From the sequence record MZ726796.1: a DNA stretch of 46,233 bases. One strand, written 5' to 3'. Of the stretch, positions 17,714-46,188 are shown one piece after another. Below the pieces are notes generated by a model that made no database searches, was not told the DNA's origin, and was given only the letters and a program-made list of their open reading frames with translations. Each line of letters starts with the position of its first letter. Position 1 is the first letter of the stretch. Source of the DNA: Escherichia phage vB_EcoS_ASO78B. The translations under genes and the position numbers were made by a program.

Positions 17714-17954
17714 GATTTATCTTCACCCATCCTTTGCTTGCACCATGCGATACGATAAGTCCTTTCTTGCGCAACGCCTGAAGTCGGCGATCAAGGACTC
17801 GAAATCCCTCATGTGGTTTTGTTGCCAGCTTTTCACACTCTGCATGTATTCCGCTATGAATGCCTCCAGAGAAATGAATAGCCATGAACGTCATCGGCTC
17901 AACATAATCAAGCTCATCCATAATCATTGCGTCGAGTTCTTCATACTTGCTCAT
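17703..17954 (-). CDS. hypothetical protein
   Basis: 83 aa; C-terminal RVLDRRLQALRKKGLI may be a winged-helix DNA-binding element. Confidence 0.45.
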   Translation of the reverse strand: MSKYEELDAMIMDELDYVEPMTFMAIHFSGGIHSGIHAECEKLATKPHEGFRVLDRRLQALRKKGLIVSHGASKGWVKINHER

Positions 17955-18763
17955 CGCATCTTCTCCAGAATTGCCATGACCTCATGAATGTCAGCGACAG
18001 GAATCTGAATAAATTCCTCATCCTCTGCCACCACATGACCAGCAGGTAGAATTACATGGTCGGCTTGCTTCAACAGTTCAATCAGGCGGTCCACTGGCTT
18101 AATCTTCTTTGACTTCAGCACCTTCGCTGTGACCTTATCCTTGCCTTGCGCTTTAGCCTCTTCGACTGCCTCGTTGATAACTTTAACCGCATCATCACCA
18201 TGCTCGCGCGTTACCGCTACGGCGTTTGCATAGCTGATTTGCCCTGCGCTGATGCGAGCCTTCACTTCTGCTGGCACATCACCCAGTGACAGATGCATTT
18301 GCACGTCAGATACTGAACGACCTACCTTCTTGGCGATCTCTTCATTCGTCCAGCCAAAGCCTTTCAGTCTCGTATAAGCCTTCGCGCGCTCAAACGGGTC
18401 AAGTTGCTTTCCCTGACTGGATGAAACCATGAAGGCGATTTTATCTGCTTCGTCTCCGGTAAAATCCTTACACTCAATACGAACTATTGGTGCACCTCGT
18501 TCAATGGCACGCAATGCGCCGAGATAGCGATGCTGACCATCAAGAATGCGGATTCCCTTCTCGTCTGGAATGACTGTTAATGCTGGCAGTGGCTGACCTG
18601 ATTCCCAGCACTGCGCGAAATACTCCACATGCTGCTCATCTGCTTCACGGATGTTGTATCCTGGTTCCAGATAGATTTGCTCAACTGGCACTAGATAGGT
18701 TTTGTTAACAGCGATGCCGTTGCGCGTTTCTTTGTCTGAATAGATTTTGCTTAGTGTTTTCAT
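17951..18763 (-). CDS. ParB-like nuclease domain protein
   Basis: ParB/Srx-type motif IRILDGQHRYLGA in N-terminal half; 270 aa. Confidence 0.7.
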   Translation of the reverse strand: MKTLSKIYSDKETRNGIAVNKTYLVPVEQIYLEPGYNIREADEQHVEYFAQCWESGQPLPALTVIPDEKGIRILDGQHRYLGALRAIERGAPIVRIECKDFTGDEADKIAFMVSSSQGKQLDPFERAKAYTRLKGFGWTNEEIAKKVGRSVSDVQMHLSLGDVPAEVKARISAGQISYANAVAVTREHGDDAVKVINEAVEEAKAQGKDKVTAKVLKSKKIKPVDRLIELLKQADHVILPAGHVVAEDEEFIQIPVADIHEVMAILEKMR

Positions 18764-35409: not shown

Positions 35410-36348
35410 TTATAAATTAAACTGTTTTTTGAACCACTCAGGCGTTTCCATTTCTATGACAGGATTACCCATTGAATAACCCGGCCACGAATTGGCTTTT
35501 TTGCACGCTTTGTAAATTTCCATTGCACCATGCAACTGAATTCGACCAATATGCAACTGCTCTTCCGTTAATCTAATTAACGCAGGAATAAACGGAGCTT
35601 TCTTTTCCTGAACTAAAAGGTTTACCGAACGCGGTGCATGACCGTATGCCGCAACAAACATATCGTGTTGCATCGCCATTTTCATAAAGTAACCAAGTCG
35701 CGCAGCATGGCGAAAAAACTCATCAGGCTTGGCGCTCACCGCTGTCTTGTAGTCAATGATGTCTCCACCTTTGGTAAGGCAGTCAAAGCGAACTTTTGCT
35801 TTTTCTCCATTAAGCTCACCAAGAATTGACACCTCAGCATAAGCACCAGAAAGAAGACTGCTGTAATAGCTATTTGCGTGGATTACAGCACGCATTTGCT
35901 GAATAGAGTCATAATCACTGCCTTCCAGCATCTGCTTTCCTGCAGCAGCTTTTTCCGCCTCTTCACGGATTACATCGTAAATTTTCACTGGCTCGCCAGT
36001 TGCACGAATGATTTTGATCACATCAGATTTAGACTTTCCTGAAAGTCCTTTAATGCCTCGTTCTTTCGCCCATGAGTTCATGTCACTGACAGTAACTAGC
36101 AGGTCATCACCAAAATCTTCTTTTGTTGGCATACGAGCATATTCAGCATCGAAACGCTCAGGTTCAAGAAGAGCTGTATGGCTACCAGTACCAAAAATGA
36201 GAGCCTTTGATTTCTCATCTTCTTCGTCTTTGTAGCGCCAAGCTGCAGGGCATCTGTCATACAGATTCCACAGACCAGAGCCATTAATATGCTCTGTGTC
36301 GGCGTGGTAATCCTGATTGCTTAATTCATTATTGAAATAGACTTTCAT
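35410..36348 (-). CDS. PD-(D/E)XK family exonuclease
   Basis: 312 aa from ATG 36348; D...DYKT catalytic-type motif (GGDIIDYKT); adjacent to ERF and SSB. Confidence 0.65.
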   Translation of the reverse strand: MKVYFNNELSNQDYHADTEHINGSGLWNLYDRCPAAWRYKDEEDEKSKALIFGTGSHTALLEPERFDAEYARMPTKEDFGDDLLVTVSDMNSWAKERGIKGLSGKSKSDVIKIIRATGEPVKIYDVIREEAEKAAAGKQMLEGSDYDSIQQMRAVIHANSYYSSLLSGAYAEVSILGELNGEKAKVRFDCLTKGGDIIDYKTAVSAKPDEFFRHAARLGYFMKMAMQHDMFVAAYGHAPRSVNLLVQEKKAPFIPALIRLTEEQLHIGRIQLHGAMEIYKACKKANSWPGYSMGNPVIEMETPEWFKKQFNL

Positions 36349-36385
36349 TGTTAACCTCACTCATCATCACGTAAATGAATCTACA

Positions 36386-44122: not shown

Positions 44123-44356
44123 ATGGCAAAAGTGAAAACATACGAGTTCTGGTTTGTGCAGAACAAAATGTATGCGAGCAAAACAATCAAGAAAGTGCGT
44201 TGGTGGAACAAGTGGTTAATCATGTCCGGCTGCATCGTGCTGGAAAAGTGCAAATTCAAAGCGATTGATATCACTGATGAGGACGCGCTCACAATCGCAA
44301 AGATTGAGTTTGAGGAAGATGGCTATTACGAAGAAATCATGGGGGTTAGGGTATGA
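44123..44356 (+). CDS. hypothetical protein
   Basis: 77-aa track ORF. Confidence 0.4.
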   Translation: MAKVKTYEFWFVQNKMYASKTIKKVRWWNKWLIMSGCIVLEKCKFKAIDITDEDALTIAKIEFEEDGYYEEIMGVRV

Positions 44357-44697
44357 GTGAAGTAAAGCGTTATGACATGAGGGTTTCATTTGGTGGAGTT
44401 GAATCTTACGAATCACCATGTGGTGATTATGTTGACTACGATGACTACGCGGCACTGCAAGCTAAATGCGCGGCGCTTGCGGCGGAGAATGCTGGGCTGA
44501 AGACAACACACCCTCAACCGTTCGGACCTGAGATGATGAAGGCTCTTGATGCGTATGAGAAGCATCAGGATGAAGTGCCGGAGGTTGGAATGCTTGATGC
44601 ATTTTTCATCTTGCGCGACAGCATCCGTGTTAAAACCCCAGCCACCGATGCTTTCCTTGCTGAAGTGCGGGCGCAGGGGGTTGAGAGGGCACCTTAA
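44353..44697 (+). CDS. hypothetical protein
   Basis: 114 aa; ATGA overlap; Ala-rich coiled-coil-like segment. Confidence 0.45.
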   Translation: MSEVKRYDMRVSFGGVESYESPCGDYVDYDDYAALQAKCAALAAENAGLKTTHPQPFGPEMMKALDAYEKHQDEVPEVGMLDAFFILRDSIRVKTPATDAFLAEVRAQGVERAP

Positions 44698-44745
44698 TGA
44701 AATATATGACGGTGTAATTGTTAATAAGAAAGAAGGAAACTCAGC

Positions 44746-45612
44746 ATGATCACTATTACCAAAGAGCGACTGCTGACAATCCAGCAGTGGCGCGAAACAT
44801 ACGGACCGGGTAGCAACGTTGTACTGCCAGCAGAAGAAGCGGAAGAACTGGCACGAATTGCTCTGGCAGCGCTGGAAGTCGAGCCGATAGGTTTCCGTTG
44901 CAGGCGCAATGATAACCTTGGTGATTGGAGTTACGTATATCATCGAGAGCCAGATGATTTTGAGCGCAAACATTTAGTGATAGAGGGTATTTACGCCGCC
45001 CCTCCAGCGCAAGTAGTACCGGAAGAAAAACCAATGCCTAATCCTCTTAGCATGTACGCGGTTGATGCTGTTGCCGCTATTGCAGAGGTGAGAGGCTGGA
45101 ACGCCTGCCGTGCAGCTATGCTTCAGTCCGGAAACTTTCGGGAAAACAAGAATTCGTCAACCAATAATTTTAGGGAAATCGCGGAAACGTCAACCAACTA
45201 TCCGGTAATTCCTAGTGAGGTGTTGTCCGCAATCCAGAAGGTTGCCAAGATTCGTGCCGATTTCGATGATTTTGACGGTGACAGGCGAGGTATCGGTGAT
45301 TGTCTGGATGAGGCTGAGCAAGAGCTTATCGTTACCATTAACAAATATGCCAGTCAGTTGGCAGCAGAACCGATAGCGACTAATGACGTTCGAGAGCAAA
45401 CAGCCGTTCCGCCAGTTCCTGTAATACAGGCTGATGTCGCGCAGGCAATTGAAAAACTCAAACGGAAATTAGTGGAATGCAATCGCTATAACTACTGCGA
45501 AGATGCAGTTAAGGGCGTTGAGTATGCCTGCCGCGCTGCCATGCTTCAGCGCTCAGAGCCTGTAACAGATAACACCAACCAGCAATTCGAAAGCCTGGCC
45601 AAAAGCGAATAG
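44746..45612 (+). CDS. hypothetical protein with internal repeat
   Basis: 288 aa; motif ACRAAMLQ occurs twice (about residues 118 and 265). Confidence 0.5.
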   Translation: MITITKERLLTIQQWRETYGPGSNVVLPAEEAEELARIALAALEVEPIGFRCRRNDNLGDWSYVYHREPDDFERKHLVIEGIYAAPPAQVVPEEKPMPNPLSMYAVDAVAAIAEVRGWNACRAAMLQSGNFRENKNSSTNNFREIAETSTNYPVIPSEVLSAIQKVAKIRADFDDFDGDRRGIGDCLDEAEQELIVTINKYASQLAAEPIATNDVREQTAVPPVPVIQADVAQAIEKLKRKLVECNRYNYCEDAVKGVEYACRAAMLQRSEPVTDNTNQQFESLAKSE

Positions 45613-45775: not shown

Positions 45776-45955
45776 ATGTTTAATGATATCAGCGACGCAA
45801 TGCAAAACATGTGGGAACGCTACTGGAACAGCATGAAGACATGCCACTACATGATGGTGCAGATAGGTAATTACATTGAGGTTGTGCCTGATAGTGGTGT
45901 GCATGACATTAAGTGCATGTGCTCAACGAGGGATTATGCTAATGCAAACAACTAA
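45776..45955 (+). CDS. hypothetical protein
   Basis: 59 aa from ATG 45776 with AGGAG RBS; a 35-aa TM peptide ORF at 45676-45783 precedes it. Confidence 0.3.
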   Translation: MFNDISDAMQNMWERYWNSMKTCHYMMVQIGNYIEVVPDSGVHDIKCMCSTRDYANANN

Positions 45956-46115
45956 AGCCAATGTTTGGCAGCTCGCAAAGCAGCACGAATTAGACGATTT
46001 TATCGCGAAGGTTGCAAAGGCATTCCCTGACGCGCTTGAAATCGTTCATGTGCAGACTCGCAATGAAAACGCATGGTGCTATGCTGGCAAGCGTGATAAT
46101 GATGGTGTACAATAA
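45942..46115 (+). CDS. hypothetical protein
   Basis: 57 aa from ATG 45942 with GAGGGA RBS. Confidence 0.3.
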   Translation: MQTTKANVWQLAKQHELDDFIAKVAKAFPDALEIVHVQTRNENAWCYAGKRDNDGVQ

Positions 46116-46160: not shown

Positions 46161-46188
46161 AACCCGCCTTGTGCGGGTTCTTTTTTAT
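46161..46188 (+). terminator. rho-independent terminator
   Basis: AACCCGC-CTTGT-GCGGGTT then T6. Confidence 0.7.

What the first reader, a model, noticed from the sequence alone, without database searches (positions are those of the whole stretch)
44746..45612. 288-aa protein with duplicated ACRAAMLQ motif
The motif [NY]ACRAAMLQ appears twice, about 145 residues apart, suggesting an internal domain duplication in a protein of unknown function at the right end.
Basis: seen in the sequence. Interest (0 to 1): 0.3.

Follow-up and report, generated by a model that had tools for sequence, protein, structure and literature searches.

The report
Shared junction motif in mosaic phage protein
The repeated ACRAAMLQ motif is real, but it is not a duplicated domain: it is a short conserved "joint" found between interchangeable protein cassettes in many E. 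coli/Salmonella prophage genes, and this lytic phage carries a prophage-derived copy of such a gene that has lost the usual end domain.

Summary
ORF 44746-45612 (+) encodes 288 aa, with ACRAAMLQ at aa 120-127 and 261-268. That is 141 residues apart, and 0 of 20,000 shuffles reach an 8-mer repeat.

A domain duplication is not supported.
- The two halves share only about 25-46 alignable columns: a Pro-rich linker plus the helix that ends in the motif.
- Their predicted folds differ: alpha/beta for the N half, all-helical for the C half.

The window is the lytic coliphage vB_EcoS_ASO78B. Nt 44670-45549 are 95-98.5% identical to the early (ea) accessory-gene region of E. coli prophages. There the same reading frame continues into a DUF551 domain (EaA-type proteins). 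Here that domain is absent and a short tail native to this phage lineage replaces it.

The motif (consensus GWNACRAAMLQ, about 30-33 nt) appears in more than 100 unrelated sequence contexts.
- Flanking identity drops to random on both sides of it.
- BLAST breakpoints pile up at its edges.
- Its synonymous codons are conserved far above what codon usage predicts.

I read it as a helix-terminating junction element at which cassettes are shuffled in frame. The recombination mechanism is inferred, and the protein's function stays unknown. The finding is of modest interest: a new member of a known mosaic family.

The parts
44746..45612 (+). 288-aa ORF (GenBank: hypothetical protein ASO78B_079 of Escherichia phage vB_EcoS_ASO78B). 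It is an EaA-like mosaic protein without a DUF551 domain.
   Evidence: 100% identity to P0001; PHROGs 14306/60/5117, all of unknown function; no Pfam, NCBIfam or PADLOC match
44732..44737 (+). Shine-Dalgarno-like GAAGGA, 8 nt before the ATG
   Evidence: read from the sequence
44670..45549 (+). Segment 95-98.5% identical to ea-region DNA of E. coli prophages and Stx-converting phages. It is absent from the related siphoviruses HC6, C1 and Segz_1.
44669..44690 (+). Left junction: about 21 nt (GGCGCAGGGGGTTGAGAGGGC) similar in both the siphovirus backbone (C1) and the prophage donor type (L002). It is an imperfect microhomology.
   Evidence: alignment; coordinates
45094..45126 (+). Junction island copy 1: GWNACRAAMLQ (aa 117-127), the C-terminal end of predicted helix 105-127
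   Evidence: E. coli match end points at ORF nt 349-352 and 378-385; protein breakpoint peak at aa 126-130
45133..45197 (+). Tandem 33-nt (11-aa) repeat NFRENKNSSTN / NFREIAETSTN inside a predicted disordered linker (aa 128-156). Copy number varies among homologues.
   Evidence: three copies in P0067
45214..45366 (+). Predicted helical hairpin, aa 157-207 (pLDDT about 90), the core of the middle cassette
   Evidence: cassette borders at aa 146-155 and 206-230
45427..45549 (+). Second motif-bearing cassette, aa 228-268. It forms a helical hairpin that ends in junction island copy 2 (ACRAAMLQ, nt 45526-45549).
   Evidence: prophage matches end at ORF nt 793-804
45550..45612 (+). C-terminal tail RSEPVTDNTNQQFESLAKSE*. 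From 45573 on it is siphovirus backbone, and the same ending closes unrelated ORFs in relatives.

Best explanation
The two ACRAAMLQ copies are two instances of a short conserved junction element (full form GWNACRAAMLQ, about 30-33 nt). This element marks cassette boundaries in a very large family of mosaic accessory proteins of temperate enterobacterial phages: the early (ea) region proteins of EaA/DUF551 type, some with an Ead_Ea22 domain.

Shown:
- In the protein, each copy forms the last turns of a predicted alpha-helix, directly before a flexible linker.
- In DNA, each copy is an island of near-identity between unrelated flanks.
- The ORF is a chimera. About 880 bp were taken from a prophage ea-region gene. 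They comprise an N-terminal alpha/beta cassette, a repeat-containing linker and two helical hairpin cassettes.
- This piece sits in the early-gene cluster of a lytic siphovirus. It enters through a roughly 21-nt microhomology on the left and joins the lineage's own conserved 3' tail on the right.
- The DUF551 domain that ends most prophage homologues is missing.

Inferred:
- The island persists because it serves both as a structural helix end and as a patch of short homology. At that patch, phage recombinases exchange the neighbouring cassettes in frame.
- The protein is a dispensable early accessory protein whose biochemical role is unknown.
For: Prophage origin and truncation:
- The ORF is 95-98.5% identical over its nt 1-804 to E. 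coli prophage DNA. The match stops exactly at the end of motif 2. It occurs in 1742 of 5426 complete genomes.
- In L001 the same frame runs on for 406 aa into DUF551 (PF04448, aa 339-402, E=9e-20). The window ORF has no Pfam hit.
- Related siphoviruses lack nt 44691-45572.
- In relatives, the TNQQFESLAKSE* ending closes unrelated ORFs.

The motif as a junction:
- In L002, cassette aa 1-127 stands alone, and cassette aa 128-268 follows a different N-terminal module.
- Protein breakpoints against 150 representatives peak at aa 126-130 and aa 266-280.
- A spread sample of E. coli DNA matches ends at ORF nt 378-385 and 793-804 and starts at nt 349-352.
- WNACRAAML lies between 63 upstream and 65 downstream sequence clusters, in 124 distinct combinations among 300 instances. 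In 45 of these the ORF ends within 10 aa of the motif.

Nucleotide-level conservation:
- Across 102 distinct DNA contexts, mean pairwise identity is 0.26-0.34 in the flanks and 0.79-0.95 across about 30 nt of the island.
- In 6355 pairs with both flanks unrelated, synonymous-codon identity is 0.46-0.94, against 0.18-0.52 expected from codon usage.
- GCC, CGC and the rare CTT codon dominate.

Structure and background:
- AlphaFold2 (mean pLDDT 73) puts the motifs at the ends of helices 105-127 and 251-267. Both helices are followed by low-confidence linkers.
- Phage Rad52-like recombinases create mosaics on short, diverged homology (PMC3945230).
- Ea22 genes are described as mosaic, with DUF551 as a portable domain (PMC10834534).
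Against: - No experiment shows recombination at the island.
- The IMG/VR sample was fetched with a degenerate pattern that fixes the amino acids. Only its synonymous-site statistics are unbiased, so dN/dS could not be estimated.
- Identity by descent of the island is also what recent spread of a protein-level functional peptide would produce.
- For this phage, the right-hand crossover into the backbone seems to lie about 25-40 nt after motif 2, at ACCAACCAGCAATTCGAA, not in the motif. The left crossover is unrelated to the motif.
- The structure model is only moderately confident (pTM 0.35), and motif 2 lies in a region of pLDDT 54-67.
- No function could be assigned to any cassette.
Confidence: 0.7

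Rival explanations
1. Internal domain duplication: the gene arose by tandem duplication of a module of about 140 aa. The two halves have since diverged everywhere except the motif.
For: The motif occurs twice in the same frame. hhalign aligns 46 columns covering a Pro-rich linker plus the helix and motif, with 95% probability. Both copies end a helix that is followed by a linker.
Against: - Outside those 25-46 columns there is no similarity.
- Predicted secondary structure differs between the halves.
- Each half occurs separately and in other combinations in prophages.
- Most family members have one copy or none.
- The DNA around the copies is unrelated.
Confidence: 0.07
2. The motif is a functional peptide: for example a docking helix for a host or phage partner, or a packing or metal/thiol site that uses the invariant Cys and Arg. 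It is conserved by selection on the protein. Cassettes are joined by illegitimate recombination, and only in-frame products that keep the peptide survive. The DNA-level similarity reflects recent common ancestry and not a role in recombination.
For: - Amino-acid variants are few and conservative in the set gathered through flank homology: CRAAML, CHAAML, CREAML, CRAVML, CRAAIL.
- Cys and Arg are almost invariant.
- Many small ORFs end just after the motif (45 of 300), as a C-terminal peptide would.
- The two copies in the window differ only at synonymous sites.
Against: - Synonymous codons are conserved far above codon-usage expectation even between copies with both flanks unrelated.
- Breakpoints fall on both edges of the island.
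- No partner or known short motif was identified.
- This reading is not exclusive of the best explanation.
Confidence: 0.2
3. Chance or annotation artefact: the ORF is not a real gene, or the repeat is a coincidence of composition.
For: No Pfam or NCBIfam family matches. A long antisense ORF overlaps the 5' part (44413..44973).
Against: - 0 of 20,000 shuffles reach an 8-mer repeat.
- Thousands of homologues have the same frame and start: 8000 were scored and 1699 representatives have E<=0.001.
- A Shine-Dalgarno-like sequence sits at the right spacing.
- The ORF lies in a co-oriented early-gene cluster that ends in a strong terminator-like hairpin at 46161-46179.
Confidence: 0.01

Closest known systems
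EaA-type 'DUF551 domain-containing proteins' of P22-like, lambdoid, Stx-converting and P1/P7-like prophages (PF04448 at the C-terminus; PHROGs 60, 14306, 5117)
   Same: Aa 1-268 are 93-98% identical to these proteins. They share the start codon, the cassette order and both motif copies.
   Different: The defining DUF551 domain is absent and a 20-aa tail replaces it. The gene sits in a lytic siphovirus rather than between recombination genes and xis/int of a prophage.
Lambda Ea22 and Ead/Ea22-like proteins (PF13935), described as mosaic proteins of the exo-xis region with portable C-terminal domains (PMC10834534)
   Same: Both belong to the same genomic neighbourhood in prophages. Both have a block-wise mosaic organisation, with DUF551 as one interchangeable end domain. 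Six of 150 relatives carry Ead_Ea22.
   Different: This ORF has no Ead_Ea22 signature and no long coiled coil. No pro-lysogenic role is expected in a phage without lysogeny genes.
Linker or boundary sequences of the modular theory of phage evolution, and 'HR traces' at mosaic borders (De Paepe et al. 2014, PMC3945230)
   Same: A short conserved island lies between unrelated sequences, and exchange end points coincide with it. Phage recombinases are known to use short, diverged homology.
   Different: The island lies inside a coding frame at a domain boundary and encodes a conserved helix end. That study found no virulent-temperate mosaics in 1508 genome pairs, whereas this is one.

Membership tests
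DUF551 (PF04448) | Match to the PF04448 profile above its gathering score (22 bits) | tested here: not met
   No Pfam family at E<=1 for the window ORF. The prophage homologue L001 4001-5218 scores 71.7 bits at aa 339-402.
Ead/Ea22-like (PF13935) | Match to the PF13935 profile (central coiled-coil region) | tested here: not met
   No hit for the ORF. Only 6 of 150 representatives match.
PHROG families 14306 / 60 / 5117 (phage proteins of unknown function) | Significant match to the PHROG profile | tested here: met
   phrog_14306 E=3e-93 (aa 97-269), phrog_60 E=1e-34 (aa 1-270), phrog_5117 E=2e-19 (aa 1-128).
Internally duplicated (tandem-domain) protein | The two halves align over domain length with significant score | tested here: not met
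   BLASTP aligns 24 aa. hhalign aligns 46 columns confined to linker, helix and motif; aa 1-127 against aa 152-228 gives 6.6% probability.
Internally duplicated (tandem-domain) protein | The two halves have the same predicted fold | tested here: not met
   AlphaFold2 gives helices plus three strands for aa 1-127 and only helical hairpins for aa 157-267.
Mosaic junction (linker) element | A conserved island flanked on both sides by unrelated sequences in many contexts | tested here: met
   63 upstream and 65 downstream clusters in 124 combinations. Flank identity is 0.26-0.34 against 0.79-0.95 in the island across 102 contexts.
Mosaic junction (linker) element | End points of similarity between genes coincide with the island | tested here: met
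   ends at ORF nt 378-385 and 793-804, starts at nt 349-352.
Mosaic junction (linker) element | Nucleotide conservation beyond what the amino-acid sequence requires | tested here: met
   Codon identity is 0.46-0.94 against 0.18-0.52 expected, in 6355 pairs with both flanks unrelated.
Mosaic junction (linker) element | Recombination demonstrably occurs within the island | not testable with these tools
   This needs genetic crosses or long-read population sequencing.

The most novel reading that the evidence does not exclude
The roughly 33-nt GWNACRAAMLQ island, together with sister islands such as ALEAEP, YAAPPAPVVP and NSPVIPDGW, is a dedicated in-frame recombination linker. It is kept at the nucleotide level because it lets temperate phages, and occasionally lytic phages infecting lysogens, combine accessory-protein cassettes combinatorially. 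That would be a concrete, widespread example of the Susskind-Botstein 'linker' idea acting inside genes at domain boundaries.
Probability: 0.3. Interest if true: 0.6.

Novelty: new member of a known kind. Interest (0 to 1): 0.3.

Why it matters
For the gene itself, not much changes. It is one more function-unknown accessory protein of the EaA/DUF551 neighbourhood, here without its end domain.

Two side points have some value.
- A lytic phage used in anti-APEC (avian pathogenic E. coli) cocktails carries about 880 bp that are 98% identical to E. coli prophage DNA. This documents recent exchange between a virulent and a temperate phage, a class that an earlier survey of 1508 genome pairs did not find (PMC3945230). 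It is relevant to how phage-therapy genomes are assessed.
- The motif is a sharply bounded 30-nt identity island placed between more than 60 unrelated upstream and more than 60 unrelated downstream sequences. That makes it a clean natural test case for whether short conserved linkers drive in-frame domain shuffling in phage accessory genes.

Tried and rejected
- Pfam, NCBIfam and PADLOC scans of the ORF gave no hits.
- A sequence search of the PDB gave no hits at E<=1.
- Foldseek of the AlphaFold2 model against the PDB gave nothing below E=1. Against BFVD, the only hit below 1e-3 was an unnamed 309-aa phage protein with TM 0.26, which is uninformative.
- Tandem Repeats Finder did not report the 33-nt tandem repeat. 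The repeat finder did.
- A literature search for 'CRAAML' found 0 papers, and 'EaA/P22/mosaic' gave only a gene table listing EaA as unknown.
- I considered a protease cleavage site, because ...AMLQ|SG resembles sites cut after Gln. I rejected it because the residue after Leu varies (Q, K, A, H, N, Y) and no such protease is evident.
- I considered Chi-like or structured DNA/RNA roles for the island. No evidence supports them, and they were not pursued.
- I first called the backbone 'Jersey-like'. This is corrected: the relatives belong to Deseoctovirus, Segzyvirus and allied unassigned siphoviruses.

Full report
**1. The observation**

The window has an ATG-initiated ORF at 44746..45612 (+) of 288 aa. 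A GAAGGA Shine-Dalgarno-like sequence lies 8 nt upstream. ACRAAMLQ occurs at aa 120-127 (nt 45103-45126, NACRAAMLQ) and aa 261-268 (nt 45526-45549, YACRAAMLQ). No further copy is present in any frame of the window. The spacing is 141 residues (423 nt). None of 20,000 shuffles of the protein reached an exact 8-residue repeat. The two DNA copies are 21/24 identical and differ at three synonymous third positions, with unrelated DNA on either side.

**2. Is it an internal domain duplication?**

Only a short unit is repeated.
- BLASTP of aa 1-140 against aa 141-288 aligns about 24 residues (Y..DAV..ACRAAMLQ).
- I built alignments of homologous segments and compared them with hhalign. The N part (aa 1-127) and the C part (aa 152-268) align over 46 columns, aa 77-127 with aa 213-268. 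These columns cover a PPxPV proline linker, a helix and the motif (probability 95%).
- The bulk of the halves is unrelated: aa 1-127 against aa 152-228 gives 6.6% probability.
- An AlphaFold2 model used 150 sequences (mean pLDDT 73, pTM 0.35). It gives helices 6-19 and 29-44, strands 49-54, 63-65 and 77-82, and helix 105-127 for the first part.
- It then gives a disordered stretch 128-156, a confident helical hairpin 157-207, a linker, a second hairpin 228-267 and a disordered tail.
- Both motif copies form the last turns of a helix that is directly followed by a flexible linker, but the two halves do not share a fold.

**3. What the gene is**

- The protein is identical to 'hypothetical protein ASO78B_079' of Escherichia phage vB_EcoS_ASO78B, whose contig length equals the window.
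- That phage is a lytic siphovirus of avian pathogenic E. coli O78. It has no lysogeny genes and no assigned genus (PMC10612097).
- None of the ten window ORFs of 238-640 aa that I scanned against Pfam is an integrase.
- Its relatives include HC6, C1 (Deseoctovirus) and Segz_1 (Segzyvirus).
- Nearly all close homologues are proteins of about 400 aa from E. coli and Salmonella prophages, named 'DUF551 domain-containing protein'. One UniRef name is 'EaA protein'.
- At the DNA level, ORF nt 1-804 are 95-98.5% identical to prophage DNA, and 1742 of 5426 complete E. coli genomes have some match. The best matches stop at nt 793-804, the end of motif 2.
- In prophage L001 the frame continues for 406 aa and ends in DUF551 (PF04448, aa 339-402).
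- The gene sits there in the early (ea) accessory-gene region, between anti-RecBCD and ead/Ea22-like genes and xis/int.
- The window ORF has no Pfam, NCBIfam or PADLOC match. It matches only function-unknown PHROGs.

**4. How it got here**

- The related siphoviruses match the window up to about 44690 and again from 45573. The intervening roughly 880 bp are the prophage-like segment, 44670-45549.
- At the left end, the backbone (C1) and a prophage donor type (L002) share an imperfect 21-nt stretch at 44669-44690.
- The insertion cuts off the upstream Ead/EaE-like ORF (44353..44697) just after its TPATDAFLAEVRAQGVE segment. That segment is itself shared at 84-92% with prophage ead/Ea22-like genes.
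- At the right end, prophage identity ends with motif 2 at 45549, and the backbone resumes at 45573.
- The ending TNQQFESLAKSE* closes quite different ORFs in HC6 and C1.
- A gene type from other phage contigs (L126, L129) bridges the gap. It has the same last cassette, the motif and then GDEPVTDNTNQQFESL.
- The ORF is therefore a chimera of prophage cassettes and a lineage-specific tail, without the DUF551 domain.
- An earlier survey found no such virulent-temperate mosaics in 1508 E. coli phage genome pairs (PMC3945230).

**5. What the motif is**

Comparative evidence shows a cassette junction.
- In L002, aa 1-127 is a free-standing 131-aa ORF ending NACRAAMLQGKGE*. Aa 128-268 follows a different N-terminal module that ends ...ERSDAMLQ.
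- Against 150 representatives at 50% identity (1699 have E<=0.001), alignment ends pile up at aa 126-130 and 266-280. Lesser peaks fall at aa 41-50, 166-170, 206-210 and 226-230.
- Alignment starts cluster at aa 26-40, 81-90, 121-125 and 146-155.
- A spread sample of 60 E. coli DNA matches ends at ORF nt 378-385 (aa 127 ends at nt 381) and at nt 793-804. Matches start at nt 349-352, the G of GWNACRAAML. Phage records show the same end points.
- Among 300 motif instances, the 25 aa before [G]WNACRAAML fall into 63 clusters and the 20 aa after it into 65. They occur in 124 combinations.
- The sequences after the motif include SGNFRENK..., GSQPVSQTYK..., GKSEQPQNAQQ..., a direct entry into DUF551 (AGNSPVIPDGW...) and immediate stops (GKGE*, KGDKS*). 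In 45 of the 300 instances the ORF ends within 10 aa.
- Fused end domains among the relatives are DUF551 (49 of 150), Ead_Ea22 (6) and a dATP/dGTP pyrophosphohydrolase (1). An ASCH-domain gene shares the last cassette.

**6. DNA-level conservation**

- A degenerate-codon scan of IMG/VR for WNACRAAML returned at least 120 loci.
- In 102 contexts that are less than 80% identical overall, mean pairwise identity is 0.26-0.34 in both flanks. It rises to 0.79-0.95 over about 30 nt, GGCTGGAACGCCTGCCGCGCCGCCATGCTT.
- Synonymous choice is strongly fixed: GCC 80-93% at the three Ala codons, CGC 90%, AAC 94%, and the rare CTT 61%.
- For 6355 pairs with both flanks unrelated, codon identity for N, A, C, R, A, A, L is 0.94, 0.88, 0.83, 0.78, 0.59, 0.74, 0.46. 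The values expected from flank codon usage are 0.50, 0.25, 0.52, 0.18, 0.25, 0.25, 0.19.
- The median exact run shared through the Cys codon is 20 nt, and 30% of pairs share at least 27 nt.
- The scan fixed the amino acids, so only the synonymous-site result is unbiased.
- The island is thus conserved as DNA, not only as peptide. This is what one expects if it is the patch of homology through which cassettes are exchanged, or if it has spread recently.

**7. Mechanism, with its limits**

- Shown: the motif ends a predicted helix before a linker. It is a sharply bounded nucleotide island between unrelated flanks, and similarity breakpoints coincide with it. The ORF is a prophage-derived chimera lacking DUF551.
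- Inferred: phage recombinases use the island, and similar islands at ALEAEP, YAAPPAPVVP, NYPVIP/NSPVIPDGW and PVPVI, for in-frame cassette exchange. These recombinases are known to act on short, diverged homology (PMC3945230).
- Inferred: the peptide is also kept for structural or binding reasons, given its invariant Cys and Arg and its conservative variants.
- The two ideas are compatible, and I cannot separate them here.
- For this particular phage, the crossovers into the backbone lie beside the motif rather than in it.
- The function of the protein remains unknown. Structure and sequence searches gave nothing.
- I take it to be a dispensable early accessory protein made only of 'adaptor' cassettes.

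**8. Comparison and verdict**

- The closest known proteins are the EaA/DUF551 prophage proteins. This ORF has the same first 268 aa but fails the DUF551 membership test.
- Next closest are the mosaic Ea22 proteins of the exo-xis region (PMC10834534).
- The motif itself is not mentioned in the searchable literature and is not covered by Pfam.
Its interpretation is only marginally right.
- The gene is a new member of a known mosaic family. The junction island and the lytic-temperate exchange are the only points of wider interest.

Noticed in passing
window 45133-45197: A tandem 33-nt (11-aa) repeat, NFRENKNSSTN/NFREIAETSTN, 75% identical at DNA level, lies in a predicted disordered linker. Homologues have two or three copies (three in P0067), so copy number varies.
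   Followed up: partly
window 44353-44697: The upstream 114-aa Ead/EaE-like ORF is cut short by the prophage-derived insertion right after TPATDAFLAEVRAQGVE. That roughly 58-nt segment (44632-44690) is itself 84-92% identical to ead/Ea22-like genes of prophages and to the relatives' genes, so it may be another shared island.
   Followed up: partly
window 45573-45612; L003 3096-3135; L004 3812-3848: Unrelated ORFs at this slot in related siphoviruses all end with the same ...T(T/I)NQQFESLAKSE* and share the same downstream DNA. This suggests a variable cargo slot with a fixed 3' border.
   Followed up: partly
window 44746-45612, protein aa 41-50, 81-90, 146-155, 226-230: Further breakpoint clusters occur at ALEVEP, IYAAPPA, NYPVIP and PVPVI. 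P0102 looks like a deletion joining ...PPVPV to TPDGW of DUF551. The stretch between YAAPPAPVVPEE and GWNACRAAML is hypervariable among relatives.
   Followed up: partly
window 44413-44973 (- strand): A 186-aa antisense ORF overlaps the 5' part of the gene and is also open in prophage L001 (178 aa). It is probably a by-product of the sense frame's composition and not a gene.
   Followed up: no
window 45876-46115 and 46161-46179: The last ORF of the cluster (79 aa) matches DUF7334 (E=3e-38). A strong terminator-like hairpin (AACCCGC...GCGGGTT followed by a T run) closes the + strand early-gene cluster.
   Followed up: no
window 35410-36360 (-) and 17951-18763 (-): The phage encodes a PD-(D/E)XK-like DUF3799 protein, possibly a recombination exonuclease, and a ParB-HTH/KorB-like protein. 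The former may bear on how the phage recombines with prophage DNA.
   Followed up: no
L002 3327-4004 and 4365-4595: In the prophage donor type, the gene upstream of the EaA-like ORF ends ...LRGHLNEIYDGVIVNKKEGNAA*. Its last roughly 75 nt were carried into the window (44670-44745), where they remain open as the 3' end of the 67-aa ORF 44546..44749. A 76-aa Cys-rich ORF sits between the two split EaA-like genes.
   Followed up: no
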